Virus record (IMG/VR): IMGVR_UViG_3300037882_002350
Coordinates: 1-18,998 of that record
Length of the DNA stretch: 18,998 nucleotides
Origin: a virus
Lineage: Duplodnaviria; Heunggongvirae; Uroviricota; Caudoviricetes
Direction: 5' to 3' (one strand)
A model generated the notes under the pieces. It saw only the letters and a list, made by a program, of their open reading frames with translations, searched no databases and had not been told where the DNA came from. Position 1 is the first letter of the stretch; each line of letters opens with the position of its first letter. Below are positions 1-14,671 of this stretch, in pieces. The position numbers and the translations under genes were made by a program.

Positions 1-72
1 AGAGATATTGGGGCTCGTTTAATTATGAATGATCGAAGAGAAGTACGAAAAGCTTGGGAAAGCAAGAAATAA
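1..72 (+). CDS. 3' end of an upstream gene (partial, product unknown)
   Basis: Frame 1 is open from base 1 (RDIGARLIMNDRREVRKAWESKK) to TAA at 70-72. The stop runs into the AAAGGAG RBS of the next gene, which suggests an operon. Confidence 0.6.
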   Translation, partial: RDIGARLIMNDRREVRKAWESKK

Positions 73-82
73 AGGAGAATTA

Positions 83-2047
83 ATGGTTAGCACTAGAGCA
101 CAAATTATAACACGAAGAACTTACAACAGACCAAAAGATGATACGGGAAAATCATTTGAAACATGGAAGGAGACCGTATCACGGGTTCTAGATCACCAAG
201 AGTGGCTTTGGACTAGAGCTATAGGCGGGCGAGAATTAACTGATTTAGAATATGCTGAACTGTACGAATTAGAACAATTGATTTTAGATCGAAAAGTTTG
301 CGTTTCAGGACGAACACTTTGGTTGGGCGGAACTGATGTAGCAAAAACTCGCGAAGCGAGTCAGTTTAATTGTACCTTCACAGAGGTAGAAACTGCCTAC
401 GACATAGTAGACGTTCTATGGCTACTACTTCAGGGTTGTGGAGTGGGCTTCAAGCCAAAAGTAGGAACCCTTAATGGGTTCTCTAAACAAATTAAAAATA
501 TAGAGATTGTTCATAGTACACGGACCGCTAAAGGTGGTGTCGAAAATAACGTAGAGTCATGGAACCCTAAAACAGGGGAATGGCGTATTAAAGTAGGTGA
601 TAGCGCCGAAGCTTGGGCCAAAAGCATTGGTAAGTTAGTTGCAGGTAAGTATCCGGCACGAACACTAGTGTTAGATTTTAGTGAATTAAGACCTGCGGGT
701 GAAAGACTAAAAGGTTACGGCTGGATTAGCTCTGGTGATGGCGCTATATCAAAAGCCTATCTAGCTATAGCGAACATTTTAAATGGTAGAGCTGATGCTT
801 TACTTACTAGAATGGACATTATGGATATAGTTAACTGGCTCGGAACAATTTTAAGTTCCAGACGGTCTGCTGAAATCGCATTATTCGAATATGGTCAGCC
901 AGAATGGGAAGAGTTTGCAGTAGCTAAGAAAGACTTCTGGCTTCATAATAATGAACATAGAACCCAATCTAATAATAGTTTACTTTTTAATGAAAGACCT
1001 TCTAGAATTGATTTGGAGAAAATCTTTCATCTAATGGAAGATGCGGGAGGTTCTGAACCAGGTTTTATTAATGCAGTAGAAGGCACTAAACGGGCTCCTT
1101 GGTTTAGGGGTTGTAATCCTTGCGTTGAGATTTTATTAGGAAATAAGTCTTTTTGTAACCTAGTAGAGATTGATATTGGTAAGTTTAAAGGTGATAATGC
1201 TGGATTACATCGCGCCACTTATTTAGCGGCTCGTGCTAATTATCGACAAACTTGTGTAAATTTGAATGATGGTATTCTTCAAGAAGCTTGGCATTTAAAT
1301 AATCAATTTCTAAGGCTTTGTGGTGTTGGACTAACAGGTATAGCGAAACGTCCCGACATGGGTGGTTACGATTATGAATACTTGAAAAGAACTGCTACTG
1401 GTGCGGCTTTTGGTATGGCAGAAGAATTAGGGCTTCCTTATCCTAAAAATGTTACTTGTGTTAAACCAAGTGGTACATTATCCAAAATTATGGATACGAC
1501 CGAAGGTATTCATAAGCCTCTAGGTAAATATATTTTCAATAATGTTACCTTTGGTAAGCATGACCCTATAGTAGAAGTTGCTAAAGCGGCAAACTATAAA
1601 ACAGTTAATCACCCTACTGACCCTGATGCGGTGTTAATAACTTTTCCGGTTTGCTGGGATGATGTACCTTTTGATAAGGTTAATGGCTTAGAGGTTAACT
1701 TAGACTCTGCAATTGATCAACTAGATCGTTATAAATTGCTGCAAATGAACTGGACCCAGCAAAATACTAGTGTAACGATATCTTACAGTATAGATGAAGT
1801 ACCTGCTATTATAGACTGGTTATTGTCTAACTGGGATATTTATGTTGGTGTAAGTTTCTTGTATAGAGCTGATCCGACTAAAACCGCTAAAGACTTAGGT
1901 TATTTGTTCTTACCTCAAGAAGTTGTATCCGAAGAAACATTCCGAAAGTATTCAGCAACACTACTTCCAGTAGATCTTGAAGCAACTAATAGCTTCGAAG
2001 AGTTGCAGGATGAAGGTTGTGCAACCGGGGCCTGTCCAATAAAGTAA
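83..2047 (+). CDS. nrdJ: Class II (adenosylcobalamin-dependent) ribonucleotide reductase, monomeric RTPR type
   Basis: Motifs TYNRP, SGRTLWLGG, FNC, GCGVGF, NPCVEI (radical Cys at 1121-1123), CNLVE, TCVKPSGT and C-terminal redox pair CATGACPIK. There is no N-terminal ATP-cone. Start moved from 29 to ATG 83, which follows AAAGGAGAATTA (654 aa). Confidence 0.95.
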   Translation: MVSTRAQIITRRTYNRPKDDTGKSFETWKETVSRVLDHQEWLWTRAIGGRELTDLEYAELYELEQLILDRKVCVSGRTLWLGGTDVAKTREASQFNCTFTEVETAYDIVDVLWLLLQGCGVGFKPKVGTLNGFSKQIKNIEIVHSTRTAKGGVENNVESWNPKTGEWRIKVGDSAEAWAKSIGKLVAGKYPARTLVLDFSELRPAGERLKGYGWISSGDGAISKAYLAIANILNGRADALLTRMDIMDIVNWLGTILSSRRSAEIALFEYGQPEWEEFAVAKKDFWLHNNEHRTQSNNSLLFNERPSRIDLEKIFHLMEDAGGSEPGFINAVEGTKRAPWFRGCNPCVEILLGNKSFCNLVEIDIGKFKGDNAGLHRATYLAARANYRQTCVNLNDGILQEAWHLNNQFLRLCGVGLTGIAKRPDMGGYDYEYLKRTATGAAFGMAEELGLPYPKNVTCVKPSGTLSKIMDTTEGIHKPLGKYIFNNVTFGKHDPIVEVAKAANYKTVNHPTDPDAVLITFPVCWDDVPFDKVNGLEVNLDSAIDQLDRYKLLQMNWTQQNTSVTISYSIDEVPAIIDWLLSNWDIYVGVSFLYRADPTKTAKDLGYLFLPQEVVSEETFRKYSATLLPVDLEATNSFEELQDEGCATGACPIK

Positions 2048-2086
2048 ACAAAAAAGCCGGGAAGAGCTCTTCCCGGCTTTTTTGTT
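2047..2086. terminator. Bidirectional intrinsic terminator (perfect 40-bp palindrome)
   Basis: AACAAAAAAGCCGGGAAGAG|CTCTTCCCGGCTTTTTTGTT is a GC-rich stem with an A6 tract on the left and a T6 tract on the right. It fills the gap between the convergent nrdJ and endolysin stops. Confidence 0.93.
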
Positions 2087-2711
2087 ATTTCCACTCTCCA
2101 ATTGAAAGAGCTTTTTGAAATTTAATAGCATAATTAGCTATAGTATCTGCTTTATCTAGACCATTAATAATTCTTCGAGCTTGAATAAATTGATCTTTAC
2201 TTGCTGCACCGGTTGTTGGTAAAGAATTTTTACAACTTTTACCTGTAAACCAGCCCTCACTCATACCACTAACCATAATTTTTGCGGCAATATCATCTTG
2301 CATAGCTAGATCTGGATTTCCAACTAAGTCTTCTCCGGTAACTGTTGCGGCTTTTGAATAGTTACTCTTCCAAGTAAGCTGAACATAACCCCTACCTCGA
2401 TATTTTATACCATCACCCTTAGTAGTATTGCCCATTTTTTTAGCTAAAACTGGTCGTTCTCCTAGTAGGTCATACATTCGTGTGAAATACTTAGGTCCAC
2501 CATATTCAGCAATTGGTTGCATTGTATGCGCAGTTTCATGATATGCTGTCGCTAGTGCATAAGCTGCCCATGAAATGGGCCAGTTTGCAGCACTACATAC
2601 ATTGGTTATAGCTTGAAGACCTTCAAATTCTTTAGGGTCTAAAGAAGGCCCTAGCATTGAATCACTTCGAAGCCAATCGTAAAACGCATCAGCATTATTT
2701 AATTTAGTCAT
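2085..2711 (-). CDS. Endolysin, glycoside hydrolase family 19 (chitinase/lysozyme-like)
   Basis: AYALATAYHET (catalytic Glu), QPIAEYG, YRGRGYVQLTWKSNY and ARRIING motifs are typical of phage GH19 endolysins. AGGAG RBS is present. There is no signal peptide or SAR segment. Confidence 0.9.
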   Translation of the reverse strand: MTKLNNADAFYDWLRSDSMLGPSLDPKEFEGLQAITNVCSAANWPISWAAYALATAYHETAHTMQPIAEYGGPKYFTRMYDLLGERPVLAKKMGNTTKGDGIKYRGRGYVQLTWKSNYSKAATVTGEDLVGNPDLAMQDDIAAKIMVSGMSEGWFTGKSCKNSLPTTGAASKDQFIQARRIINGLDKADTIANYAIKFQKALSIGEWK

Positions 2712-3077
2712 TTATTTTTCTCCTAAAGACTCTAACGTAGAATGTCTTTGTCTTGCTTTAATAAATCTTGTTAGATTCATTGTGGAATCAGTTTCTACAA
2801 TTATGGACTCATTCAGTTCATTTATTGCTTCTCTTAAATCCTGTGATAATCTATGAGATTTTTTAGCATCAGATCTCTGCTCTTCCTGAACTTCTCTCAT
2901 TGTTTCTATTAACTCTTTTAAAAGTTTAGAATCTATAAAACTTGCACTTATGACGGAGTTATTATCTATTTTTTCTTCTGTCTTTAAGTACTTGATAACG
3001 CCTACAATAGCAGCAACTAGTGCTATAGCTATAAGGCTCGCACCTTGTGCCCAAATGGGTAAAGAATTAACGTCCAT
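2712..3077 (-). CDS. Single-TM membrane protein of the lysis cassette (holin/antiholin candidate)
   Basis: One hydrophobic segment (SLIAIALVAAIVGVI) followed by KYLK and a helical, charged C-terminal region. Its stop abuts the endolysin ATG. Confidence 0.6.
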   Translation of the reverse strand: MDVNSLPIWAQGASLIAIALVAAIVGVIKYLKTEEKIDNNSVISASFIDSKLLKELIETMREVQEEQRSDAKKSHRLSQDLREAINELNESIIVETDSTMNLTRFIKARQRHSTLESLGEK

Positions 3078-3080
3078 TAC

Positions 3081-3515
3081 TTATCTAATCTTACCCCTAA
3101 CTGACAAGTCTGCCAATTTAGCGTCGCCTGCGGCAAACCATAAAGATATTAAATCTAAAATCACCAGCATTGCGTAAATACCTGCAGTGGGCGTTAACCA
3201 CGGCAAACTTAATGCAGATATAAGTAAACTACCCCAAAGCAAAGCTCCGGAAGCACAACCTATAGCTCTTATATGGGCTGATGGTCTCCAGGCACCATTT
3301 ATAATTAAAAATATTAACCTAATAGTGCCAACTGTAGCGGCTACAGTTCCCCAAGTTACTTGGTCCATTAAAAGCAGAAGGGGGTGAAAATACTCCATTC
3401 TAATAAACAAATTAGTAGAAGCTAGTGTCATCAACCCCCATAAAAGCATGCCAGTAGATTGGACCCACTCTGGCATTCTTTGGCGAAACGTTTCTTTAAA
3501 ACGAACTATTAGCAT
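3081..3515 (-). CDS. Four-TM membrane protein, putative holin
   Basis: About four hydrophobic segments, a basic N-terminus and a location two genes upstream of the endolysin. Coupled to the upstream gene by a TAATG overlap at 3513-3517. Confidence 0.6.
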   Translation of the reverse strand: MLIVRFKETFRQRMPEWVQSTGMLLWGLMTLASTNLFIRMEYFHPLLLLMDQVTWGTVAATVGTIRLIFLIINGAWRPSAHIRAIGCASGALLWGSLLISALSLPWLTPTAGIYAMLVILDLISLWFAAGDAKLADLSVRGKIR

Positions 3516-3787
3516 TATGCAATAGGAACTGGTGCTGCGTTACTTATATTTGGAAACTGAGACTTAACCATTTCAATTACCTTGATTATATTTCCCATCT
3601 GACTGTATGCGACACTTCCTGTCACACAACCAGCCTCTATATCTTTCATTTCAGATATAAATTCTAGGGCAACAGGCGATTCCATAAATTTGGAAAACTT
3701 AACTATTTTTTCCTGCTCTTGAACTTGCATTTTTGCTCTTATCGCTTCAAAGGTTGCGATTTCTTCTTCTGTTACTATTGTTGTCAT
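3515..3787 (-). CDS. Hypothetical 90-aa soluble helical protein heading the lysis cassette
   Basis: Strong RBS (AAGGAGAATAAAATG) and a stop overlapping the next start. No recognisable motif. Confidence 0.7.
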   Translation of the reverse strand: MTTIVTEEEIATFEAIRAKMQVQEQEKIVKFSKFMESPVALEFISEMKDIEAGCVTGSVAYSQMGNIIKVIEMVKSQFPNISNAAPVPIA

Positions 3788-3826
3788 TTTATTCTCCTTT
3801 TTTATTAACTTCGCCTATTCTACTTG

Positions 3827-3855
3827 TTGACGAAGATTTTGTTTTTATCTATACT
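3827..3855 (+). promoter_or_regulatory. sigma70-type promoter for the inverted gene 3887..4273
   Basis: TTGACG (3827-3832), 17-nt spacer, TATACT (3850-3855). TAAGGA RBS at 3873-3878 precedes ATG 3887. Confidence 0.8.
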
Positions 3856-3874
3856 TTAATAAGTTATTAAAGTA
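3852..3874. promoter_or_regulatory. Perfect 11-1-11 inverted repeat overlapping the -10 box and start site (operator-like)
   Basis: TACTTTAATAA-G-TTATTAAAGTA has exactly complementary arms. Confidence 0.55.
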
Positions 3875-3886
3875 AGGAATTTATAT

Positions 3887-4273
3887 ATGTTTATTAAAAA
3901 ATTATTATTAATTGGATTGATTACTATGGTTCCAGTAACGGGAATTTATGCAGAGAGCATAAGTTCAATGTCGTCTGGTTCTAAAGAACAAGGTAAAGAT
4001 GGTTACTTCTTCAAATCCGAAGAATATAGTAAATCTGAAATTCTTGTGAAAATCGTTTATTTTGAATCACAGAAATCGCTTAATAAATATTACAATGAAA
4101 TGAATGGTATTCAGAAGGCGAAAACTAGTACTGCTCCTAAGGGGGCATTCGCAATTATACAAAAAAATTCTAAAGAATGCACTATATACATGGTGAAACC
4201 TTCGAGCAAATATTACAAACCAGAGTTATTAGGTCATGAGTTAACTCACTGCTTAATGGGTGAGTTCCATTAA
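3887..4273 (+). CDS. Small secreted protein with C-terminal HExxHxxxGxxH zinc-metallopeptidase-like motif
   Basis: N-terminal Sec-type signal (MFIKK-LLLIGLITMVPVTG-IYA|ES, no lipobox Cys) and C-terminal ELLGHELTHCLMGEFH*. It has two Cys, its own promoter and RBS, and runs opposite to all neighbours. Confidence 0.75.
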   Translation: MFIKKLLLIGLITMVPVTGIYAESISSMSSGSKEQGKDGYFFKSEEYSKSEILVKIVYFESQKSLNKYYNEMNGIQKAKTSTAPKGAFAIIQKNSKECTIYMVKPSSKYYKPELLGHELTHCLMGEFH

Positions 4274-4983
4274 ATAACACCTGATAGAATGATTCTGTCA
4301 TTGGCAAACCCAGAAGCTGGCGGGCCATAACCCGATACGGCTACATCTTTGATACTTATATTATTACCAATCATTTTAATTCCTGGAACCCAACCAGTTC
4401 TTGCGGAACTGGTTAATGGGGTTCTAGCACGGAAAGCTTTACCACCTGCAAACAATGCGATTCTTCCAGCAGCATTAAGAGATTGAGTTGTTCCCCCATG
4501 CGTTGTTGAAGACCATCTAAAACTGTTTTCAACCTTTAATGGATTCAAAGAATTATCCCAACACAAAGTACTATCAGCATTTAGCAATTGTAATCCAACT
4601 CCAGAAGCTGGGGGGCTCAACCCCCTCATACTTTTATAGGCCCACCATTCAACAGTATGGCTAGATAAGTTTGTTCTTTCGGAAGTTGGCCAATCTGCAT
4701 CTGTGAATGTACAAGGTTGTGTCGATATATAAAAACCATCGTTCCCTATTTCTGGAAAACAATAAGCGGAAGTGCACCTTAAACCAACCAATTCTACACC
4801 CGGTGCAGATATTAGAACAGGATTACCCGAGCTACCGTATAAAGCCCCTATATAAAATCCAGAAAAGATAGCGAATAAATCAACACAAGAAACTGATCCA
4901 GAATCTATCAAAGTAAAAGCGGATGAAGATGCATCAAATTGTAATTTTCCGTCTGATGTATAAGATTGAAAACCTACTGTCAT
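4270..4983 (-). CDS. Tail-tip protein, candidate receptor-binding protein (T1/phi80-type gene after the J-like fibre)
   Basis: N-terminus MTVGFQSYTSDGKLQFDAS matches the M..GFQ....G..QFD pattern of ~230-aa proteins encoded two genes after J-like fibres. It is beta-rich and has an AAGGA RBS. The RBP role is inferred from synteny. Confidence 0.55.
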   Translation of the reverse strand: MTVGFQSYTSDGKLQFDASSSAFTLIDSGSVSCVDLFAIFSGFYIGALYGSSGNPVLISAPGVELVGLRCTSAYCFPEIGNDGFYISTQPCTFTDADWPTSERTNLSSHTVEWWAYKSMRGLSPPASGVGLQLLNADSTLCWDNSLNPLKVENSFRWSSTTHGGTTQSLNAAGRIALFAGGKAFRARTPLTSSARTGWVPGIKMIGNNISIKDVAVSGYGPPASGFANDRIILSGVI

Positions 4984-4998
4984 TACTAAAGTTCCTTC

Positions 4999-5295
4999 TT
5001 AATAAGCTAGGGCATTTATTCTTGCAAAATAAGAACCGGTATCCTTAAATTTATACTGTAATTTATCATTTGTTACATCATAATTTACATCTATAACATC
5101 TTGGGGCGCTGAACCTGATTCTATAGATGCAGATGCAGCTATTAAATTGGTGGTTCCAGGAGGAAGAACAGTTACTTCTTGCGCAGCTGTTGTAGTCGCT
5201 TCCGCAACTACACTAGTAATTGATTTTAACACATAAGTTGATGTATCTATAATTAAAGTGCCAGATGTATCCCACACTTGTAAGCCTTGTGGCAT
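4999..5295 (-). CDS. Small tail-tip protein following the fibre
   Basis: N-terminus MPQGLQVWDTSGTLIIDTS is the typical pattern of ~100-aa proteins directly after J-like fibres. The AGGAG RBS overlaps the fibre stop codon. Confidence 0.6.
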   Translation of the reverse strand: MPQGLQVWDTSGTLIIDTSTYVLKSITSVVAEATTTAAQEVTVLPPGTTNLIAASASIESGSAPQDVIDVNYDVTNDKLQYKFKDTGSYFARINALAY

Positions 5296-5305
5296 ATTAC
5301 TTCTC

Positions 5306-8300
5306 CTACCAAATTCCTAGTCTAACGCGAAGCACATTAGACGCATCGTATACTCTAATCAAATCTTTCGTTATTGTAACACGAGCTCCACTCGTCCCAC
5401 CAACATTCAGTTCTCCCTTAAACGTGGATACGCCACCTACAATTTCAAGAGCTGGATCTGTTAAATTACCTAAAGATATTTTTGAAGCTCTTAAATTAAT
5501 AGCACTTGTAGTAATACCACCGCTATCTAATGCAACTAACTCTACTTCTGCTACGCCTGATCCTGCACTTACTCTATTTAAATATGTAGCCGTTCTTGCG
5601 TTAAGTGCAGTAATTGCTGTTGCTTGAGTTACTATCGAAGCTCCTTGAGTAGTAACTGTGCTATTTAAAGTAGCTATGGAAGATGTGTGTCCCCCAACAG
5701 TTCCTTCTAATGTAGTGATTGCTGTTGCTTGGGAACTGATCGAAGCGCCTTGAGTTGACACTGTGGAGTTGAGAGTAGCAATAGACGTAGTATGACCTCC
5801 AACAGTTCCTTGGAGTGTTGTGATGGCCGTAGCCTGTGAAGATATATTAGCTCCCTGTGTAAATACAGTGGAGTTTAGTGTGGCTATGGAAGACGTATGT
5901 GTAGCCAATGTGGATGCGTGTGTAGATACAGTTGCTTCCATAGGTGCAAGCACAGTCTGATCGCGTATCTCAGAGGCCGTTGCAGGCCGAACCGCTAAAT
6001 GATGTAGATCGACATATTTATACATCTGAGCGCCAAAACCGCCCCAGTTTAGCATAAGAACTACACCATATTGTGTCAAGTTGGTGTTACTCATCTGAAA
6101 AAGTTGAGTTGTTCTCATAAGTCTAAATGGTGATGCTCCTTGGTATGCAGTCAGACCATTTGTATCCTTCAAGCTATTCAACGCAAAAGATGGAGTTTCT
6201 ACTTCGCTACCAGATGAGTTTTTACCCGATAGGTAAACTCCGCCGCCCTGTAAGTTTCCGTCGATAAGTTCAAAGGTGCATTCCAACACATACCAACCCG
6301 GACGCATAGGATAATTGCTATTTGTAGCTATGCCGGATGTCCAGTTGGCGTTTGCCAAAAGTCTATAAGCATAAGGACTTACTACACCTTGTGATCTAGC
6401 TTGGTACGTAGGAGTTTGGAACCAATCTTGCCACACAGTAGCCGCGTATGAAGGAACTGCATCTGATAGGTCAGAGAAGGATGGATTAGGGTGCATGGAC
6501 AAGCCACCCGTTCGGCCAACTGTGTTAGTGATTGCCGTCAACTTGGTTGACTGTGTAGCCGCGCTTGCACTTAGAGTAACGATAGCCGAGGTATGCGTTG
6601 CAACTGTAGCTTCCATAGGAGCTAGTACAATTTGGTCCCGAATCTCGGCCGGGGTGGCGTCCCGCACAGAACATAAGTGCCATGTAATCGTCTTTGCAGG
6701 ATTGCTTCCATAACCAGCCCAATTTGATAGAGCATACAATAGCCAATTATTTTCAACGCCAACTATGCTTGTAATTTGGATTAGTTTTGTAAACTTATAT
6801 TTTCTTCCAGTCGAGCCAGCGCCAACAATACTGTTTGTTGTTGCTTCTTTTTCAATGGAGAATTTTATAGAGCCAAATTCACCTGCTGAATTACCCAAAA
6901 ATATAGCGGAGCTTTCAAGAGAACCAGATTCTAAGGTGACCTCGGCCTCTAGGACGTAGTATCCATTCCCTTTTTTACCATTCATAGAGGTTATACTTTG
7001 AAGTATTCCTCTAGAGGTTCCAGCTACTACAATCTGCCGGAAAGCAAACCCGCCTATATCTCCAGATACTTTAACATTATCATACCCTGCGGCCCAATCC
7101 GCCCAGTTGGCCGGATATGTGCCGCTCCCTCCTGCCCAATCGGCAAAGGTTGGGTTTTTATTGAGAGAACCCATACCGATTGACGCGCTAAGCACAGCAC
7201 TGATCTGCGCCGCCGAAGCCTGCGCGGTTGCAATAGCTGCTTGAGTTGTCGCTATTCCAGCTTGTGTTGATGCCGTAGTCGCATGCCCTCCCGCAGTAGT
7301 TGCAGAGTTTGCAGCATTTCCTGCGTAAGTTGCCGAGAGACTGGCTTGTGTCGTTGCTGTACTTGCTGCGCTTGTCGCTGTTGCTGCCTGTGTAGAGGCA
7401 ATCGTCGCACTAGACGCCGCTGTGATACTTTCTGTGACATCCTCTGCGTAGCAATAATCTATAGCACCCTGTGTCCCACTACCTCCGCCGGTATTAGCCC
7501 AAGAGAAAGGCATAGCATATGCCGCGTTTGAAGGTATTTGTGTGTCTCCTGTGCCAATACCGTCAAAGGTTGCGGTCAGGTCTACCCATGTACCGTTGAC
7601 ACCCAGAATATATGAATTGCCGTATCTCTGGCCCAGCCATGCTTTGTTGGCATCAAAAAACGACAGTCCTGTATATGCGTAATTTGTACCAGCCGTCCAT
7701 ACAGACGTCTTCACACGGTATCTACGATTGGGGTCTATAGCAAAGCACTTACCGGCGATCTGCAACGATGACCCAACAGGACCAGTAAAAACTCCTGTGC
7801 GTCCGTTAAACGAAGCTTGCCATCCGGAGGACGGTGTAGTTCCTCCGTCAAATAAAGAATAGTTGTCATTCCAAAGCAACCCGTTCTCAGTGAAGTGCGC
7901 GTTTGGTGTCAGCGCCAAGGTCTGACTGTAGGCATTAGCCCGATTAGCGTAAGTCGCCGATAGCGTTGCTTGCGTCGTTGCTGTGCTGGCAGCACTCGTT
8001 GCGACAGCGGCTTGCGCTGTTGAAATCCCTGCCTGTGTCGTTGCCGCATGGCTCTCCGTAATATCAAACAATTCAAAACTTACCCAGTCAACCAAACATG
8101 GCAGAATAGAGTTAAAATTGGAGAGTATTATAGGGGCGACGGCGACTGTGTTGGGTGGAAATTGACCTCCGGTTGTATATATTGGGTTGGCTAGACCCGT
8201 GTTGATCCCTTGGTAAATTTGCTCTCTGGTATACCCATCGCCTGCATTAAATGTCTGCCCTACTACGCTGTCAAAGTATATGTTTCCTAAATTATCGCCT

Positions 8301-9439
8301 GCTATGTTAAAACAGGTAAGACCCGCATAATTTTGAGTATTTCCGATATGCTGTAACCAAGTGACGGAAGCTTTATATCTTCTAGTTGGGTCAATAGATA
8401 TTTTTACCCCGCTCAATGAAGATAAGGTGCCACTATTCTGCCAACGGCCTCCCCAGAACGACGAGACGTCATAGGACATGTTATAGGCGGTCCAGAGAGC
8501 TGGGCCAGCCTCCATGTCGCCATTAGGTATTAGATTAGCCTTGGTATTTGAATAGCCTTTGGCCTCATCCCGATAGGCTGCCGATAAGGTTGAGGAGGTG
8601 GCGGCAGAAGAAGCACTAGCGGAGGCGTTCGTTGCCTGAGTAGTAGCGATGCCTGCTTGTGTAGCAGCGGTGTTCGCATGACCTGACGCTGTGGATGCAG
8701 AATTTGCAGCGTTGGTAGCGAATGTCGAGGATAGTGTCGCTTGGCTTGTAGCAGTAGCCCCTGCTGCGGTTGCTATCCCTGCTTGGGTTGTCGAGATACC
8801 GGCCTGTGTCGCTGAGGTAGCAGCATGAGTTGCGCTCAGACTAGCTTGAGTTGTGGCCGTTGAGGCACTAGCTGAGGCTGCTGCCGCTTGGCTTGTGGCA
8901 ATTCCTGCCTGAGTCGTGGCCGTGGTTGCATGTCCCGCTGATACCGACTGACTAGTTGCTGCTGCGGATGCTGCGTCTGTAGCTATTACAGCCTGACCGG
9001 TTGCCGTAGTAGCACTCCCCGCTGCGTTAGAAGCCGAAGTGGCAGCTGCATTTTTATGAGCTTCTGCTAGAGCTTCGTCAGCAGCCGCATTAGTACTGGC
9101 TGCTTGTGCTGCTATCTTTGCTAGTTCCGCATCCTCTAGTGCTGCTGCTGCTGCAATAGCACTAGCAAGCGCTCCACTAGCTGCATTTAAAGCTTCTTCT
9201 GCATCAGTAGCAGCTGCTGCTGCTGCGCTAAGCGCAGCTGCTGTATCAATAGCTGCAGATTCCGCTGCGATAACTGCTGCTGCTGCATCAGCAGCAGCAG
9301 CTTCAGACGTAATCACTGCTGTGCCTACGTCTGAAGTAATCTCTTCAATAATTGTTGTTGTTACAACAGGAATTGTGGTTCCTTTTTTTCCTTCATCTGT
9401 ATTATTAGGGAAAAAAGGTGAGAAATATGTTTGAGTCAT
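5306..9439 (-). CDS. Central tail fibre / host-specificity protein (1377 aa) with Ala/Thr-rich shaft, four globular inserts and a lambda-J-like C-terminus
   Basis: Follows the hub by an ATGA overlap. Long Ala/Thr/Ser heptad-like tracts alternate with four aromatic-rich domains of 160-180 aa. The C-terminus RVTITKDLIRVYDASNVLRVRLGIW is typical of J-type central fibres. Confidence 0.8.
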   Translation of the reverse strand: MTQTYFSPFFPNNTDEGKKGTTIPVVTTTIIEEITSDVGTAVITSEAAAADAAAAVIAAESAAIDTAAALSAAAAAATDAEEALNAASGALASAIAAAAALEDAELAKIAAQAASTNAAADEALAEAHKNAAATSASNAAGSATTATGQAVIATDAASAAATSQSVSAGHATTATTQAGIATSQAAAASASASTATTQASLSATHAATSATQAGISTTQAGIATAAGATATSQATLSSTFATNAANSASTASGHANTAATQAGIATTQATNASASASSAATSSTLSAAYRDEAKGYSNTKANLIPNGDMEAGPALWTAYNMSYDVSSFWGGRWQNSGTLSSLSGVKISIDPTRRYKASVTWLQHIGNTQNYAGLTCFNIAGDNLGNIYFDSVVGQTFNAGDGYTREQIYQGINTGLANPIYTTGGQFPPNTVAVAPIILSNFNSILPCLVDWVSFELFDITESHAATTQAGISTAQAAVATSAASTATTQATLSATYANRANAYSQTLALTPNAHFTENGLLWNDNYSLFDGGTTPSSGWQASFNGRTGVFTGPVGSSLQIAGKCFAIDPNRRYRVKTSVWTAGTNYAYTGLSFFDANKAWLGQRYGNSYILGVNGTWVDLTATFDGIGTGDTQIPSNAAYAMPFSWANTGGGSGTQGAIDYCYAEDVTESITAASSATIASTQAATATSAASTATTQASLSATYAGNAANSATTAGGHATTASTQAGIATTQAAIATAQASAAQISAVLSASIGMGSLNKNPTFADWAGGSGTYPANWADWAAGYDNVKVSGDIGGFAFRQIVVAGTSRGILQSITSMNGKKGNGYYVLEAEVTLESGSLESSAIFLGNSAGEFGSIKFSIEKEATTNSIVGAGSTGRKYKFTKLIQITSIVGVENNWLLYALSNWAGYGSNPAKTITWHLCSVRDATPAEIRDQIVLAPMEATVATHTSAIVTLSASAATQSTKLTAITNTVGRTGGLSMHPNPSFSDLSDAVPSYAATVWQDWFQTPTYQARSQGVVSPYAYRLLANANWTSGIATNSNYPMRPGWYVLECTFELIDGNLQGGGVYLSGKNSSGSEVETPSFALNSLKDTNGLTAYQGASPFRLMRTTQLFQMSNTNLTQYGVVLMLNWGGFGAQMYKYVDLHHLAVRPATASEIRDQTVLAPMEATVSTHASTLATHTSSIATLNSTVFTQGANISSQATAITTLQGTVGGHTTSIATLNSTVSTQGASISSQATAITTLEGTVGGHTSSIATLNSTVTTQGASIVTQATAITALNARTATYLNRVSAGSGVAEVELVALDSGGITTSAINLRASKISLGNLTDPALEIVGGVSTFKGELNVGGTSGARVTITKDLIRVYDASNVLRVRLGIW
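5585..5899 (-). repeat. Three tandem 105-bp (35-aa, five-heptad) repeats in the fibre
   Basis: HTSSIATLNSTVFTQGANISSQATAITTLQGTVGG, HTTSIATLNSTVSTQGASISSQATAITTLEGTVGG and HTSSIATLNSTVTTQGASIVTQATAITALNARTA, with His codons at 5899, 5794 and 5689. Confidence 0.92.
7169..8950 (-). repeat. Dispersed degenerate TQAGI[AS]T.QA...LSA..[YA] repeats in the fibre linkers
   Basis: About five copies (e.g. TTQAGIATSQA, ATQAGISTTQA, ATQAGIATTQA, TTQAGISTAQA, STQAGIATTQA) in the tracts 8537-8950, 7913-8050 and 7169-7426. Confidence 0.75.
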
Positions 9440-12400
9440 CCTTTAATAACCTTATGTCGAATCCAGTAGTATTTAACTACTCGACCGTTTATGCCTCCAA
9501 AAACATCTACAAAAGAATTTGTAGGCGTGGGAAGTGTTGTAATTAAATTAGCTGTTTGAACTACAATGTCCAAAGCTGTTCCATTTGATAGGCCTAAAAT
9601 AGGGCCACCTTTTGATTCGGATAAAGTGAACTGATTTGGAGCTGGGATTGATCTAACAAAATAACTTTTACCAGCTTCTAAATTATTCGCACTAGTTTGA
9701 CTAGTAATTAGTTCTCCTATTTTTAGTTCGTGACTAATTGTAGATGTTAATACATTTCCAACTATATTATCTATAGTAAGATAAAACTGTTGGGACGTAG
9801 AGCTATATAATTCAGTATATACATTTTTAGTATTTGCTAAAGCATTATTATTCCAGGTTAATTCTACTCCAGAATATGTTTCGTCTCCAGTATCTATACT
9901 AGAAGCTGTTAAATTTGTAGGACTTCCTATAGTAGTTATGGTACCACTTCCACCAGAACCAGATCCTGCTTGTCTACTTATGTTACTGATAGTATAAAAG
10001 CTATCATCATACTCTTCAGCAACAATGTCTACTGTACAATCCTGTTGGTGTGTAAGACTTATTATTCTAAATTTTTTACCTTCCCACCCGTATCGCGGAT
10101 ACTGAATCTGTATAACAGTACCAGACAGCAATAATAGCCCTCTAGGTGCTATGTTCATAGAAATAGTTAAACCAAAACGTGACCTATTTAAATATTTATC
10201 AGCTAATATTCTAGTATTATAATAATTAGTTATACCAGGTATAGAAATATTACCTTTTTTAGGTACATTTCTGTCAGATTTCAAGAATTCACTATTGAAA
10301 AAACTAATATTTTTTGACTCAAATTTATTACCTGGGTCCGCAAAAGCAGCTGTTAGCGAGTTAAAGGCACCTTTAGTACCTTCATCTGAAAGTCTTATTT
10401 TACCTATAATATGGTCAGAAGTTATGTTTCTAGGCTCGGAGTCCTCGACGCCTATTGCTCCTTCCGGTTCTTCTACACTTAGATAGTATTTACCCCCACT
10501 ATATGTGAGTATCCCTCCAAAATGTTCTAATAAGCTGTTTATATTATCGAATAATGGGAGAGATGTATCTATACTTAAGTTACCTTGATGTCTAGTAACG
10601 TATCTTTGACTAAATTCGTCCCATCCTAGGTATCTCCAGTAATTTATTTCATCGCAGTCATATAAAGAGTATCCTGATATCCTTGTACCATTTTTTGTAG
10701 CATGAATTGGGTTGCCAGTTACTGGCAAACTCAAAGTTACATCTCCAGTACTACTTACTAAGTCAATATTAGTACTTAAAAATTCTAAACCATTATTTAC
10801 ACCACTTGTATGGGTGGGTTCGGTGGTTTTAATTCCTGCATCAATAACTTTATACATTCTCGAGCCGCTATAGATTAACTCGTTTACTTTTAAAAATCTC
10901 CAGTTGTTCCATTGACTGGTTAGTTTTCCAATAACGTCAGTAAATTCAGTGTAACCATTTTCTGTACCTACAACAGTACCCTGCCATAAAATATCCCCTG
11001 TAGCAGGCCATCTATACTTATTATTTACTGAAGGGGTTGTTGCAGTATGTGCTACTGTAACGTTAGATCTTTCGTCACATTTTCTTCCAGCTTCTAACCA
11101 AGACTCTAGATTTAAATCATTAAAAATATCTAAACCTTTCCCGTAAGTATGCGAAGTCATATAGTCCAGAGTCTGCATAGCAAAGTTAATGCTCACTCTC
11201 TTATCAGAGTATGGAGGATATATTACAACAGTATCTCCAGCAGTAGGGGTTTGATCATAATCCCAAATATCATCAATTGTAGCTATTTTAGTAGTTCCGT
11301 TATATGCTATAATTTTTTTAATTTGAGTAGTTTGTTTATCACTAACAGAATCATATTTATATAGTGTTATGTAGTAGCCACTATAAAAGTTGTCTACGCT
11401 GCTGGAGCCAACTAATTTAATAGTATTTTTTGATGTAATGATTACATTATTACTTATAGCTTCATTGATTTCTATTAGAGCATCGCCTGCCGCATAAGGT
11501 ATATTTGTTGTAAATTGACCTGGTCCAGTATCTCTACCAGATAAAATTCTTCTGCCATTGAATATGTTTCCTTCAGAATAGGCATAGTCATCTACTTCAA
11601 AACCTATATAAGGAATATCATTTTGAATAGGATCTCCGCCTGAAAGGTTAGATCCACCAGTATAGTTAATAGCTATATAACCGGAATCATTAGCTACGGT
11701 AGTTGGGGTAGCTTCTATTTTTGAATCTACAACTCCTCGGAATTCCTCATAGTTCCATGTTACCATAGTCCATTTTTGATTACTAGTATTTTTCATATAG
11801 AACTTAGTAATATTAGGTACAGCATTTATATACCCCAAGTTAGGTGGAGTACTAAAACGGAAACGAGTATTTAAGGTTCCATCAGGATTTGAAAAAGTCC
11901 ATTTGTCTATAATTTGTACAGGAGAGCTAATAGCCACGTCTGACATATTGTATAAAGTAACGTATTCACCTAGTTTAAAGTTATCGGAAGATTCCCCCAA
12001 CTCCTTACTATAATGAGAATAACTAAAATCATAGTTATAGCAGTCTATATTTTTTCCTCTAAGTACAAATTCTAACTCTGGTATTGTTGTTTCGCCTTCT
12101 TCAATAATATACTTTACAACAACATACGCAGTATCTATTAATCTGTGATTTGGCCCCCAATATTCAGCTGTATCGGTTCCAGCCCAATAAGACATTTGAA
12201 TGTGAAAGTTTTCATTTTTCGCAATCTCAACTAACTGTGATGCGGCGCGCGCGCCAGATCGTCCTGAGAAAAAATCTATGTTTATTTTCTGCGGAGAAGT
12301 AAGAGCGATACTCTCCCCATCAATAACACCTTTACCTGTTGTACCCGCTAACGCTGCTGTGGGTTCGACATACGGCTGGTAGTTACTTAGTATAGTATAG

Positions 12401-13815
12401 TTATAATTAGAATCAGTATATAAGTACTCCCACCCTTCGTAATAGTTTATAGGAATACCTGCAGTAGACGTTGTGCCCCCCAGTACGTCGCCTCTATCTG
12501 CTCGACCTCTGCATACTAGTTCTACGGTGTTATCAGCGGTTTGGGCACTTCTAGCATCAAAATCACCTTTGTCGCTACAAATCAAGCTATTTCCATTTAT
12601 ATATATGTCATAGATACCACCTATTTCGCCTTCAGATAGCGCATAAACAACATACACTGTTGAACTATTATCATGTAGCGTATCCGCGAATACAGGAATA
12701 CCTTTGGTTGGTCTAACCCCGTAAATAACAGGTATAGATTTAGCTTGTAATTGAAAATCTAGTTCTGTTGTTCTATCTTCAGGTACAAAATATTTTTTAA
12801 CTTTAACTTTGCCACCAATACCTAAACCTAAGAATCCGTTTTTAACTTTAATATTTTGTTTTTCTACTTGAACAACATATGTAGATAGCATATTTAAAGA
12901 GGTTTCCGCATGAGCAAAACCTTTATCGTAAGCATATGCAGTTTTTAATGCAGATTGCGGTTGAGGTATCCCGTTAGCATCTAATGCTCTATGAAAGTCG
13001 TCTGAGGTAATTCTACCTTTAACTTGTGCAAAATCACCCCAGTGGCTTGTAAGCCCCCAAGTAACCTCGATGTTTTTTTCCGTATCGTCGAAAGATACAT
13101 TTGAGATAATGCCTTTAAATATAAGTACAGGAGTTCCAACTATTTGGCCTTGCTGATAGTAACCTCTATAAATAAATACCTCTCTATTTATAAAAGAAGC
13201 ATATTCAGGTACATTTTTATCTAAAAGGATACTTTTTATTTCTTCTGAAGATAAAGACATATTTACCGAACCCGTTCCCGGAGTCAATACATCGTCTATT
13301 TTAGATACTCTTATAGTATTATTAGCTCTGAAATTAACTATGTTAAATTCGCCTATATAAGAACCATCTAGAGTGATTTTATCACCTTCTCGAAAACCCG
13401 CACCTATTAAATTAGTTTCTAAAGGCCAAGCGATATCCCACGTAGATGGGTTAATTTGAGTTATTGTTATTGTTCCAGATACGAAAGCGCCTATACCATT
13501 ACCATCTAATGTAAGGTTAAAATTGTTAGCTTTAGCTTGGGTTTGCTCAGAAACAGAACCTACTTTCAAAACTTTATTAGCAATGTAAACCTGACTGCCG
13601 TTAGCAACACCATTTAAACTACTCGATCCATCGTCAAAATTAAGATCCCTACTAGCATCGGTTAAGTATGTATATCGTTCTTTAGATGTAGATACGCGCC
13701 CATTCGCATCAGGTCGCGAAGGACGTTCAAATTTTATTAAATGAGCATAAGAAAAAGGCTCATTGTTTAAGAGCATATTCTTTACGTCAATATGTACAGG
13801 TCTTTCGGTTAACAT
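9436..13815 (-). CDS. Baseplate hub / tail tip protein, T5 pb3-like, with multiple insertions (1459 aa)
   Basis: Blocks resemble T5 pb3 as recalled: DFAQVKGRITSDDFHRAL, ELDFQLQAKSIPVIYGV..GIPVFADT, VYVVYALSEGEI, YWRYLGW, FNSLTAAFADP, ITNYYNTR. It ends in an FnIII-like domain (SPTNLTAS...VELTW...YYWIRH). Start moved from 13902 to ATG 13815, downstream of AGGA. Confidence 0.88.
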   Translation of the reverse strand: MLTERPVHIDVKNMLLNNEPFSYAHLIKFERPSRPDANGRVSTSKERYTYLTDASRDLNFDDGSSSLNGVANGSQVYIANKVLKVGSVSEQTQAKANNFNLTLDGNGIGAFVSGTITITQINPSTWDIAWPLETNLIGAGFREGDKITLDGSYIGEFNIVNFRANNTIRVSKIDDVLTPGTGSVNMSLSSEEIKSILLDKNVPEYASFINREVFIYRGYYQQGQIVGTPVLIFKGIISNVSFDDTEKNIEVTWGLTSHWGDFAQVKGRITSDDFHRALDANGIPQPQSALKTAYAYDKGFAHAETSLNMLSTYVVQVEKQNIKVKNGFLGLGIGGKVKVKKYFVPEDRTTELDFQLQAKSIPVIYGVRPTKGIPVFADTLHDNSSTVYVVYALSEGEIGGIYDIYINGNSLICSDKGDFDARSAQTADNTVELVCRGRADRGDVLGGTTSTAGIPINYYEGWEYLYTDSNYNYTILSNYQPYVEPTAALAGTTGKGVIDGESIALTSPQKINIDFFSGRSGARAASQLVEIAKNENFHIQMSYWAGTDTAEYWGPNHRLIDTAYVVVKYIIEEGETTIPELEFVLRGKNIDCYNYDFSYSHYSKELGESSDNFKLGEYVTLYNMSDVAISSPVQIIDKWTFSNPDGTLNTRFRFSTPPNLGYINAVPNITKFYMKNTSNQKWTMVTWNYEEFRGVVDSKIEATPTTVANDSGYIAINYTGGSNLSGGDPIQNDIPYIGFEVDDYAYSEGNIFNGRRILSGRDTGPGQFTTNIPYAAGDALIEINEAISNNVIITSKNTIKLVGSSSVDNFYSGYYITLYKYDSVSDKQTTQIKKIIAYNGTTKIATIDDIWDYDQTPTAGDTVVIYPPYSDKRVSINFAMQTLDYMTSHTYGKGLDIFNDLNLESWLEAGRKCDERSNVTVAHTATTPSVNNKYRWPATGDILWQGTVVGTENGYTEFTDVIGKLTSQWNNWRFLKVNELIYSGSRMYKVIDAGIKTTEPTHTSGVNNGLEFLSTNIDLVSSTGDVTLSLPVTGNPIHATKNGTRISGYSLYDCDEINYWRYLGWDEFSQRYVTRHQGNLSIDTSLPLFDNINSLLEHFGGILTYSGGKYYLSVEEPEGAIGVEDSEPRNITSDHIIGKIRLSDEGTKGAFNSLTAAFADPGNKFESKNISFFNSEFLKSDRNVPKKGNISIPGITNYYNTRILADKYLNRSRFGLTISMNIAPRGLLLLSGTVIQIQYPRYGWEGKKFRIISLTHQQDCTVDIVAEEYDDSFYTISNISRQAGSGSGGSGTITTIGSPTNLTASSIDTGDETYSGVELTWNNNALANTKNVYTELYSSTSQQFYLTIDNIVGNVLTSTISHELKIGELITSQTSANNLEAGKSYFVRSIPAPNQFTLSESKGGPILGLSNGTALDIVVQTANLITTLPTPTNSFVDVFGGINGRVVKYYWIRHKVIKG

Positions 13816-13843
13816 TACAAAAATTTTCCTATTTATTAATAGA

Positions 13844-13869
13844 AATATCCGCCTATTAAAGCGGATATT
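13844..13869 (-). promoter_or_regulatory. Stem-loop in the 5' leader of the hub gene (possible attenuator or weak terminator)
   Basis: AATATCCGC (13844-13852) and GCGGATATT (13861-13869) with an 8-nt loop. On the - strand it is followed by UCUAUUAAU. Confidence 0.5.
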
Positions 13870-13886
13870 ATATCTAAATACAAGTG

Positions 13887-13915
13887 AGTATAGCAAGACC
13901 AAAACTTAAAGTCAA
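13887..13915 (-). promoter_or_regulatory. sigma70-type internal promoter upstream of the hub gene
   Basis: On the - strand: TTGACT (13915-13910), 17-nt spacer, TATACT (13892-13887), preceded by an A-rich tract (AAAAAATAAC). Confidence 0.78.
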
Positions 13916-13938
13916 GTTATTTTTTCGTCTAGGTATGC

Positions 13939-14670: not shown

Positions 14671-14671
14671 A

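What the first reader, a model, noticed from the sequence alone, without database searches (positions are those of the whole stretch)
3827..4983. Inverted secreted mini-metallopeptidase paired with the candidate receptor-binding gene: possible protease-type superinfection exclusion
Seen: one + strand gene interrupts a contiguous - strand late region. It has a near-consensus promoter, a Sec signal without a lipobox, and ends in HELTHCLMGEFH*, and its stop overlaps that of the 237-aa tail-tip gene. Known: in T5 (llp beside oad/pb5) and in T1/phi80 (cor after the J-associated small genes), the gene next to the receptor-binding gene encodes a lipoprotein that blocks the outer-membrane receptor. 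Inference: here that slot holds a soluble periplasmic zinc-peptidase-like protein, which could cleave or inactivate the receptor or another envelope target instead of plugging it. I know no described exclusion system of this kind.
Basis: partly seen in the sequence, partly recalled or inferred. Interest (0 to 1): 0.8.

Follow-up and report, generated by a model that had tools for sequence, protein, structure and literature searches.

The report
Exported mini zinc-peptidase-like phage protein
A small gene set backwards at the end of a T5-like phage's tail operon encodes an exported 106-residue protein whose invariant residues form a zinc-protease-type site; it belongs to a large, unnamed, mostly phage-borne family, and nothing yet shows that it blocks superinfection.

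Summary
Window 3887-4273 (+) is a real 128-aa gene with a Sec signal peptide, no lipobox and a C-terminal GHELTHCLMGEFH. Its stop overlaps the stop of the convergent 237-aa tail gene.

It is not an orphan. An exhaustive search found 310 cluster representatives. C98, G116, H117, E118, H121 and H128 are invariant among the 149 aligned; C122 and G125 are 99% conserved. Most proteins end within ten residues of the last His. About half are lipoproteins.

There is no Pfam match, and the only PHROG match has no known function. The MSA-based model (pLDDT 84) has the beta-alpha-beta-beta-alpha layout of a zincin N-terminal half, with no C-terminal half. The nearest solved relative is selecase, which shares the HExxHxxxGxxH spacing, but the match is weak. 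A symmetric homodimer is predicted (0.80 against 0.16 for the best control).

The gene follows tail-fibre or J-like genes in several sipho- and podovirus lineages and in Sphingomonad prophages. Most homologues lie elsewhere, in T4-like replication and head regions. A distant sister family sits on Burkholderiales chromosomes.

An exported zinc-peptidase-like protein is therefore well supported; protease-type exclusion remains an untested guess. This scan had already met the family in an Alteromonas phage.

The parts
3827..3855 (+). sigma-70-type promoter-like site, TTGACG-17-TATACT
   Evidence: 10 of 12 matches. The relative L004 has TTGACT-17-TATAAT at the equivalent position.
3874..3879 (+). 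ribosome-binding site AAGGAA, 7 nt before the ATG
   Evidence: Read directly from the sequence.
3887..4273 (+). CDS of the 128-aa exported zincin-like protein (P0001)
   Evidence: 310 homologous cluster representatives. Single copy in the 83-kb record.
3887..3952 (+). Sec (SPase I type) signal peptide, residues 1-22, predicted cleavage IYA|ES
   Evidence: Sequence features. No Cys before residue 98. Homologues carry either SPase I-like signals or lipoboxes.
4178..4180 (+). codon of Cys98, the inferred disulfide partner of Cys122
   Evidence: C98 is invariant and C122 is 99% conserved in the 149 aligned sequences. They are the only two Cys of the mature protein. The disulfide itself is inferred.
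4232..4270 (+). C-terminal metal-site motif G116-H-E-L-T-H-C-L-M-G-E-F-H128; the protein ends at the third His
   Evidence: G116, H117, E118, H121 and H128 are invariant; C122 and G125 are 99% conserved. The motif lies on helix 112-124 of the model.
4270..4983 (-). convergent 237-aa tail protein (P0002); its stop overlaps the P0001 stop
   Evidence: phrog_4062, function unknown. 'Phage tail protein' clusters DUF6453/DUF8377. Synteny with the family gene is kept in L004 (75% identity) and in L007 (30% identity over the N-terminal 150 aa).
4999..5295 (-). 98-aa tail-associated protein (P0003); its N-terminal motif resembles that of P0002
5306..9439 (-). 1377-aa fibre-like tail protein
   Evidence: PHROG tail and tail-fibre hits. 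Homologous fibre pieces lie next to family genes in L077 and L007.
9436..13902 (-). 1488-aa baseplate hub / J-like protein (T5 pb3-like)
   Evidence: phrog_5616. tblastn hits to the hub / central-fibre J proteins of T5-like phages.

Best explanation
P0001 is an accessory phage gene with its own host-type promoter. Its product is exported by Sec and its signal peptide is cut off, leaving a soluble periplasmic protein of about 106 residues. After a Ser-rich linker this is a roughly 90-residue domain.

That domain is the N-terminal half of a zincin metallopeptidase: strand, backing helix, two strands, then the active-site helix. It is probably stapled by a C98-C122 disulfide. It would bind one zinc through H117, H121 and the C-terminal H128, with E118 as the general base.

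Because it lacks the C-terminal half that normally forms the lower rim of the cleft, it most likely works as a symmetric homodimer. The conserved N-terminal DGY segment and the P105-Y110-P112 loop would form the interface next to the two metal sites.

I infer that it hydrolyses a peptide bond of an envelope component of the infected (diderm) cell, or of something entering it. The target is unknown.

Shown: the gene, its export signal, family-wide invariance of the metal-site residues, and the fold class.
Inferred: zinc binding, the disulfide, the dimer, catalysis and the substrate.
For: Gene and signal peptide.

Family: 310 representatives at E<=1e-3. In the 149-sequence alignment C98, G116, H117, E118, H121 and H128 are invariant, and D38, P105, Y110, P112, C122 and G125 are at least 90% conserved. 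All members begin with a signal peptide, and 83 of 149 have a lipobox-like site.

Structure: the AF2 model with MSA has pLDDT 84.2 and a core above 95. Its elements run b53-59, a62-71, b87-91, b97-103, a112-124.

Metalloenzyme matches, all weak:
- selecase 4qhf: profile E=1.2 with identical HExxHxxxGxxH spacing; VIA Z 2.6, rmsd 3.1, 56 residues aligned, 29% identity;
- YbeY: Z 3.6, 73 residues aligned;
- abylysin and jannalysin: Z 2.7 and 2.5.

Homodimer prediction (residues 33-128 plus Zn): score 0.80, best of 3 controls 0.16. The mark was reached by 20 of 30 proteins solved as pairs of one chain and 1 of 23 proteins solved as single chains. The runs agree in 100% of contacts and the partner pLDDT is at least 80. 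Interface columns are somewhat more conserved than the rest (entropy 2.40 against 2.82 bits, one-sided p=0.026).

Independent expression: the promoter is conserved in L004.

Accessory character: GC is 31.8% against 39% for the genome. The protein is 51% identical to its L004 orthologue, while the neighbouring tail proteins are 73-75% identical.
Against: No C-terminal subdomain, Met-turn or Ser/Gly-turn exists, because the chain ends at H128. No characterised zincin is this short, so catalysis is not assured.

Structural matches to peptidases are weak (Z<=3.6). Glyoxalase-like beta-alpha-beta-beta-beta proteins, which are not related, score equally or higher (Z up to 4.0). Foldseek found nothing in the PDB. 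No Pfam family matches.

The dimer is a prediction only, run with my own alignment and a metal riding along, which is outside the tool's calibration. The predicted interface touches H117 and residues around the helix start, so the dimer could be an inhibited form rather than the active one.

No expression or biochemical data exist.
Confidence: 0.6

Rival explanations
1. One reading: a protease-type exclusion factor or receptor-destroying enzyme. Made early from its own promoter, the periplasmic peptidase cleaves the phage's receptor, a periplasmic partner of it, or the ejection proteins of incoming phages. This would stop superinfection and keep progeny from sticking to debris.
For: The gene has its own conserved promoter on the strand opposite the late tail genes. 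It is exported. It recurs right after tail-fibre or J-like genes in unrelated phage types and in Sphingomonad prophages, which is the classic moron/cor-like position. It evolves faster than the adjacent tail genes. About half of the family are lipoproteins, as Llp and Cor are.
Against: Most strong homologues are not next to tail genes, and 17 of the 26 strong viral loci with a called gene on both sides are co-directional with both neighbours. There is no similarity to T5 Llp. In T5 the llp-oad pair is divergent and lies far from the tail operon. The neighbour here has not been shown to be the receptor-binding protein. A distant sister family sits in housekeeping regions of Burkholderiales chromosomes. 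There is no functional evidence at all.
Confidence: 0.2
2. A non-catalytic zinc-stabilised binder. The His3 site and the disulfide only hold a tiny exported fold together, and the protein acts by binding a host envelope protein, whether by plugging, masking or inhibiting it, as Llp does to FhuA.
For: The substrate-cleft half of a zincin is missing, since the chain ends at the third His. The conserved surface residues D38, Y40, F42, P105, Y110 and P112 could form a binding face. The weak fold matches include non-peptidase metalloproteins such as YbeY and glyoxalase-like proteins.
Against: The Glu of HExxH is invariant (100% of 149), and a purely structural site does not need it. The helix-borne motif followed by Gly and then the third His is the catalytic arrangement of the metzincin and selecase types.
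Confidence: 0.15
3. A lysis or egress helper. The peptidase cuts envelope tethers (Lpp, OmpA-type links or peptidoglycan stem peptides) to help outer-membrane disruption, compensating for a lysis cassette that shows no o-spanin.
For: The gene lies 100 bp from the lysis block, which holds a 90-aa ORF, a 4-TM holin-like protein, a TM plus coiled-coil protein and a GH19 endolysin. No lipobox ORF resembling an o-spanin was found there. The protein is periplasmic.
Against: It is transcribed from the opposite strand with its own promoter, not with the lysis genes. Family-wide neighbours are not lysis genes. In L007 the gene ends a + strand operon of small genes. Known peptidoglycan peptidases use other motifs.
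Confidence: 0.08
4. Not a functional gene: a chance ORF with a chance HExxH in an AT-rich spacer.
For: The promoter-like site count is not above shuffles.
Against: There are 310 homologous cluster representatives with invariant motif residues. Synteny and the promoter are conserved in relatives. The MSA-based fold is confident.
Confidence: 0.01

Closest known systems
Selecase (Methanocaldococcus jannaschii MJ1213; PDB 4QHF-4QHJ), a 110-residue minimal metallopeptidase
   Same: It has the identical motif spacing HExxHxxxGxxH (HELLHLKYGKYH against HELTHCLMGEFH). It is similarly small. Its residues 19-80 align to model residues 48-128 with 29% identity. From my own knowledge, unchecked here: selecase also self-associates.
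   Different: Sequence similarity is not significant (E=1.2) and the structural Z is only 2.6. Selecase continues for about 30 residues after the third His, whereas P0001 stops there. Selecase has no signal peptide or conserved Cys pair. It is archaeal and cytosolic, not phage-borne and exported.
Minigluzincins (proabylysin 4JIU, projannalysin 4JIX) and other minimal zincins (SprT/Wss1, ArdC C-terminal domain, YbeY fold)
   Same: They share the beta-sheet, backing helix and HExxH helix core of about 100 residues. Structural matches are weak: Z 2.5-3.6. The language-model nearest named clusters are DUF6647, eCIS_core and SprT-like, at 0.76-0.77, which is below the noise level.
   Different: In gluzincins the third ligand is a downstream Glu on a further helix. 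Here it is a His seven residues after the second His, and no further helix exists. No profile match was found.
Metzincins (HExxHxxGxxH plus Met-turn)
   Same: They have three His ligands with a Gly turn between the active-site helix and the third His.
   Different: There is one extra residue before the Gly (HExxHxxxGxxH). There is no Met-turn and no C-terminal subdomain. MMP hits in Foldseek are at noise level.
T5 Llp and the Cor proteins of T1/phi80: receptor-blocking exclusion lipoproteins
   Same: They are small exported phage proteins with their own early promoter, encoded on the strand opposite an adjacent late tail gene. Many family members are lipoproteins placed behind tail-fibre genes.
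   Different: There is no sequence similarity. Llp has no metal motif and lies divergent to oad, away from the tail operon. P0001 itself has no lipobox. Most family members are not next to tail genes. No exclusion phenotype is known.
phrog_27783 (function unknown) and three unnamed, virus-only ESM Atlas clusters
   Same: These are the family itself. 52 of 149 members match phrog_27783. The atlas clusters have TM 0.57-0.65 and are 100% viral.
   Different: None carries a functional annotation. P0001 itself scores below threshold for the PHROG.

Membership tests
Zincin (HExxH) metallopeptidase fold | HExxH lies on an alpha-helix, with both His and the Glu conserved | tested here: met
   H117, E118 and H121 are invariant in 149 sequences. 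The motif lies in helix 112-124 of the model.
Zincin (HExxH) metallopeptidase fold | A third metal ligand lies downstream of the motif | tested here: met
   H128 is invariant and is preceded by G125 at 99%. The geometry could not be measured, because no coordinates were available.
Zincin (HExxH) metallopeptidase fold | N-terminal subdomain topology: sheet, backing helix, edge strand, active-site helix | tested here: met
   The model runs b53-59, a62-71, b87-91, b97-103, a112-124 with core pLDDT above 95.
Zincin (HExxH) metallopeptidase fold | A C-terminal subdomain forms the lower cleft and the S1' pocket | tested here: not met
   P0001 ends at H128. 130 of the 146 representatives that carry the full motif end within 10 residues of that His.
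Zincin (HExxH) metallopeptidase fold | Significant structural match to a solved zincin | tested here: inconclusive
   Best zincin-type Z values are 2.5-3.6, no better than unrelated glyoxalase-like folds. Foldseek PDB found none.
Zincin (HExxH) metallopeptidase fold | Zinc binding and peptidase activity | not testable with these tools
   This needs purified protein.
Metzincin | Motif HExxHxxGxxH | tested here: not met
   The spacing is HExxHxxxGxxH, one residue longer, throughout the family.
Metzincin | Met-turn beneath the metal site | tested here: not met
   There is no sequence after the third His.
Selecase-like minimal peptidase | HExxHxxxGxxH spacing in a domain of about 100 residues | tested here: met
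   Alignment to MJ1213 residues 66-87.
Selecase-like minimal peptidase | Detectable homology across the domain | tested here: inconclusive
   Profile E=1.2 over 22 residues. VIA Z 2.6, 56 residues aligned, 29% identity.
Llp/Cor-type exclusion lipoprotein | Lipobox with acylated Cys | tested here: not met
   P0001 has no Cys before residue 98, although 83 of 149 relatives have a lipobox-like site.
Llp/Cor-type exclusion lipoprotein | Sequence similarity to Llp | tested here: not met
   BLASTP E=11.
Llp/Cor-type exclusion lipoprotein | Consistent adjacency to the receptor-binding gene | tested here: inconclusive
   The gene is adjacent to tail-fibre or J-like genes in about ten independent loci but lies elsewhere in most. 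The receptor-binding identity of the neighbours was not established.
Llp/Cor-type exclusion lipoprotein | Blocks adsorption or superinfection | not testable with these tools
   This needs a phage-host experiment.

The most novel reading that the evidence does not exclude
Phages of many lineages carry the smallest exported metallopeptidase yet seen: a catalytic unit of about 90 residues that ends at its third zinc ligand and completes its cleft by homodimerising. It would act as a receptor-destroying or entry-blocking protease in the periplasm or at the outer membrane, which would be an enzymatic form of superinfection exclusion.
Probability: 0.15. Interest if true: 0.8.

Novelty: new variant of a known kind. 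Interest (0 to 1): 0.5.

Why it matters
If the protein is active, the family would set a new lower size limit for zinc peptidases and would show a half-zincin completed by dimerisation. That would interest enzymologists and protein designers.

For phage biology, it would add an exported enzyme to the set of small envelope-directed accessory genes. The examples I know of act by binding rather than by catalysis (Llp, Cor, Imm, Sp).

The family is abundant in environmental phages: 310 clusters at 50% identity. It has no Pfam match and its only PHROG match has no known function, so naming and characterising it would annotate many hypothetical genes. A distant chromosomal sister family in freshwater Burkholderiales suggests a cellular origin or counterpart that could be studied in culturable Limnohabitans.

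Tried and rejected
Searches that found nothing useful:
- The word-index homologue search with P0001 returned only itself, and with the A1 profile only 29 unnamed proteins.
- A single-protein scan of viral contigs found nothing.
I used a degenerate DNA pattern of the motif instead. The motif statistics from those loci are therefore biased by construction, and only the phmmer set counts for invariance.
- blastn and tblastn against GenBank phages gave no DNA match, no match for P0002, and only two records with a family member.
- Pfam gave nothing for P0001 or for the family.
- Foldseek against the PDB and against BFVD gave no significant named match.
- The single-sequence AF2 model was poor, pLDDT 52, and was replaced by the MSA model.

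Ideas rejected:
- No T5 pb5 homologue is detectable in the 83-kb record. This is an empty answer, not proof of absence.
- T5.134, a + strand ORF at the equivalent end of T5's tail operon, is unrelated and looks spurious.
- The G6-CTCAA-C5 hairpin with a T-run at 4609-4628 (+), 336 nt downstream, was considered as the terminator of the P0001 transcript. It is not conserved in L004.

Literature: searches for selecase/minigluzincin, for exclusion with metalloprotease, and for HEXXH with lipoprotein and tail fibre found no description of this family.

Full report
**Observation**

The window is the first 19 kb of an 83-kb IMG/VR virus record estimated at 75% complete. All long ORFs from 2085 to 18997 run on the - strand:
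- a GH19 endolysin;
- a TM plus coiled-coil protein of 121 aa;
- a four-TM holin-like protein of 144 aa;
- a 90-aa ORF;
- proteins of 237 and 98 aa;
- a 1377-aa fibre-like protein;
- a 1488-aa hub/J-like protein (phrog_5616);
- a Dit with the T5 pb9 A-domain;
- the tape-measure protein.

The one exception is the + strand ORF at 3887-4273. Its TAA (4271-4273) shares two bases with the stop of the 237-aa gene, which is the reverse complement of 4270-4272. The product, P0001, begins MFIKKLLLIGLITMVPVTGIYA|ES and ends GHELTHCLMGEFH. It has no Cys before residue 98, so it has a signal peptidase I signal rather than a lipobox.

TTGACG-17-TATACT lies at 3827-3855, and AAGGAA lies 7 nt before the ATG. 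On its own the promoter match is no better than chance in this AT-rich stretch (8 sites against 7.4 in shuffles). However, the orthologous gene on contig L004 has TTGACT-17-TATAAT at the same position. I therefore accept the promoter.

**The gene belongs to a large unnamed family**

The quick word-index search found only the query. The exhaustive phmmer search of 1.84 billion representatives found 310 proteins at E<=1e-3 and 37 at E<=1e-10. Nearly all are 100-150 aa long and match up to query residue 128.

In an alignment of the best 149 (A1), C98, G116, H117, E118, H121 and H128 are invariant. D38, P105, Y110, P112, C122 and G125 are at least 90% conserved. Every member starts with a signal peptide, and 83 of 149 have a lipobox-like site. 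So P0001 belongs to the soluble half of a family that is otherwise half lipoprotein.

Of the 146 representatives that carry the full motif, the chain ends at the last His in 4, within 3 residues in 49, and within 4-10 residues in 77.

No Pfam family matches the query or any member meaningfully. 52 of 149 members match phrog_27783, which has no known function. Three ESM Atlas clusters with the same predicted shape (TM 0.57-0.65) are 100% viral. Among 50,697 GenBank phage records only two carry a member: Phage C48C1 (Kyanoviridae) and Alteromonas phage vB_AemP_PT15-A5 (Schitoviridae). I found no paper on the family.

An earlier report of this scan (e1-1684986) described the same family from the Alteromonas phage. 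I reached the same homologue independently and confirmed its membership (hhalign probability 98.75%).

**What the protein looks like**

With the family alignment, AlphaFold2 gives a confident model: mean pLDDT 84, core above 95. After the signal peptide and a Ser-rich linker, an extended segment (about 36-52, carrying the conserved DGY-x-F motif) is followed by strand 53-59, helix 62-71, strands 87-91 and 97-103, a conserved Pro/Tyr loop, and helix 112-124 carrying HELTH. G125 turns the chain to H128, the last residue.

From my own knowledge of the fold, this is the order of elements in the N-terminal subdomain of zincin metallopeptidases. There is no C-terminal subdomain at all.

The only two Cys of the mature protein are the invariant C98, on the last strand, and C122, which follows the second His and is 99% conserved. 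In an exported protein this points to a disulfide stapling the active-site helix to the sheet. I infer this; I could not measure it, because model coordinates are not exposed.

Similarity to solved structures is weak:
- Foldseek found nothing.
- The exhaustive VIA search gave Z<=4.0. Unrelated glyoxalase-type beta-alpha-beta-beta-beta proteins lead that list. Metal-dependent hydrolases and zincins follow: YbeY (Z 3.6), abylysin (2.7), selecase (2.6, 29% identity over 56 residues), jannalysin (2.5), and collagenase and ArdC domains.
- A profile search of PDB sequences hit only selecase MJ1213, at E=1.2. The motif spacing is identical: HELLHLKYGKYH against HELTHCLMGEFH.

The spacing is one residue longer than the metzincin HExxHxxGxxH. 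The family is therefore best described as a new, truncated, exported zincin-like family whose nearest known relative is selecase. It is not a member of any described family.

**Dimer**

A half-zincin cannot form a normal cleft, so I tested self-association. Two copies of residues 33-128 with zinc scored 0.80, against 0.16 for the best of three controls. The mark was reached by 20 of 30 proteins solved as pairs of one chain and 1 of 23 proteins solved as single chains. The three runs agree in 100% of contacts and the pLDDT is at least 80.

The two-fold interface uses strand 53-58, the DGY segment, loop 104-117 and the start of the HExxH helix. This is where the non-catalytic conserved residues lie. 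Interface columns are modestly more conserved than the rest (entropy 2.40 against 2.82 bits, p=0.026).

This is a model, run outside the tool's calibration, with my own alignment and a metal riding along. It cannot tell an active dimer from an auto-inhibited one.

**Genomic context: the test of the exclusion idea**

The tail module is colinear with T5's pb2-pb9-pb3-pb4 block. The 98- and 237-aa genes therefore occupy the collar/side-fibre position. In T5, the receptor-binding gene oad and llp lie elsewhere and are divergent from back-to-back promoters. Here the pair is convergent. No pb5 homologue was detectable (an empty answer).

P0002 resembles clusters auto-named 'Phage tail protein' (DUF6453, DUF8377; score 0.96). 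In L007 only its N-terminal 150 residues are conserved. This fits a fibre-like protein with a variable distal part, but receptor binding has not been shown.

Synteny of the family gene with P0002 and P0003 is kept in L004. There the family protein is 51% identical and the neighbours are 75% and 73% identical. It is also kept in L007, where the family protein is 37% identical, the P0002 homologue is 30% identical, and a homing endonuclease is inserted. The family gene thus diverges faster than the tail genes beside it. Its GC is 31.8%, against 39% for the genome.

To sample the family more widely I scanned IMG/VR and GTDB genomes with a degenerate DNA pattern of the motif. 114 of 120 viral loci and 114 of 120 genomic loci hold an HMM-confirmed member. 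The members fall into groups:
- **Strong viral members (32 loci).** Their neighbours are mostly HNH endonucleases, clamp loader, SbcC, ligase, ParB and major head protein. These are T4-like genomes. Of the 26 loci with a called gene on both sides, 17 are co-directional with both neighbours and only 3 are inverted against both, as here.
- **Tail-adjacent members.** L109 has a 1075-aa phrog_5616 J-like protein. L068 has a phrog_8917 protein. L077 has a fibre homologous to the window's 1377-aa protein. The Alteromonas podovirus has its member between a tail protein and a tail fibre. Sphingomonad prophages L222, L192, L142 and L137 have theirs right after J-like or fibre genes.
- **A weaker-scoring viral sister class.** It lacks the DGY motif and has an extra Cys. 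It lies beside radical-SAM, DNA-polymerase and regulator genes.
- **A distant chromosomal class.** It is common in Limnohabitans and other Burkholderiales, often in several copies per genome and sometimes in tandem with degenerate copies. Its neighbours are housekeeping genes: Tex, SDR, a solute-binding protein, GST and a LuxR regulator.

The link to tail ends is therefore real and recurrent in siphovirus-like and temperate genomes, where it coincides with the usual moron site. It is not a property of the family as a whole.

**Interpretation**

Well supported: a Sec-exported, probably disulfide-stabilised protein with a zincin-type metal site, made from its own promoter, accessory in character, and acting in the envelope of a diderm host.

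Likely but unproven: zinc binding, homodimerisation and peptidase activity. The invariant Glu argues for catalysis and against a purely structural site.

Open: the target. Protease-type exclusion or receptor destruction remains a reasonable guess, at about 0.2. The position, the separate promoter, the fast evolution and the lipoprotein relatives favour it. The scattered family context and the lack of any functional data count against it. A non-catalytic binder (0.15) and a lysis helper (0.08) are the main alternatives. No o-spanin was seen in the adjacent lysis cassette, but the gene is not co-transcribed with that cassette.

**Limits**

Motif statistics from the pattern-derived loci are biased by construction. 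Neighbour genes were called with a simple greedy ORF rule. 

Noticed in passing
window 2085-3787 (- strand): The lysis block holds a GH19 endolysin (208 aa), a TM plus coiled-coil protein (121 aa, like an i-spanin or holin accessory), a four-TM holin-like protein (144 aa) and an acidic 90-aa ORF. No lipobox ORF that could be an o-spanin was found in any frame.
   Followed up: partly
window 4270-5295 (- strand); L004, L007: P0002 (237 aa) and P0003 (98 aa) share an N-terminal motif, M-x-x-G-x-Q-x(5)-G-x-L-x-x-D, perhaps a common docking segment. In L007 only the N-terminal 150 aa or so of the P0002 homologue is conserved, which suggests a swappable distal part.
   Followed up: partly
window 5306-9439 (- strand): The 1377-aa fibre-like gene has 47.7% GC, against 39% for the genome and 35% for the adjacent hub gene. 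This compositional outlier may have been acquired by recombination.
   Followed up: no
window 4609-4628 (+ strand): A G6-CTCAA-C5 hairpin followed by a T-run lies inside the P0002 coding region, antisense to it, 336 nt downstream of the P0001 stop. It is not conserved in L004, so it is probably a by-product of the repeated PPASG coding motif, which also occurs at about 4311-4335.
   Followed up: yes
L007:2187-2996 (- strand): A 269-aa gene with a faint NUMOD3 hit, a homing-endonuclease-type domain, is inserted between the fibre gene and the P0003-like gene of a related phage contig.
   Followed up: no
L130-L249 (for example L203, L205, L218, L195, L230; Limnohabitans planktonicus II-D5 loci L161, L162, L177, L181): Freshwater Burkholderiales chromosomes carry many paralogues of a distant sister family: lipoproteins ending GHE[VL]RHCFEG[HA]FH. 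They often lie in tandem. Some copies have lost the Glu or the last His (GHLVRHCFEGRL).
   Followed up: partly
window 29-2047 (+ strand): A class II (B12-dependent type) ribonucleotide reductase gene converges on the endolysin gene. The record's tail module is distantly T5-like (Demerecviridae-like), although there is no DNA match to any GenBank phage.
   Followed up: partly
L002:5911-6291 (Phage C48C1): The family member of this cultured-collection myovirus is a lipoprotein. It sits in a tRNA-rich stretch next to an HNH endonuclease, far from tail genes.
   Followed up: yes
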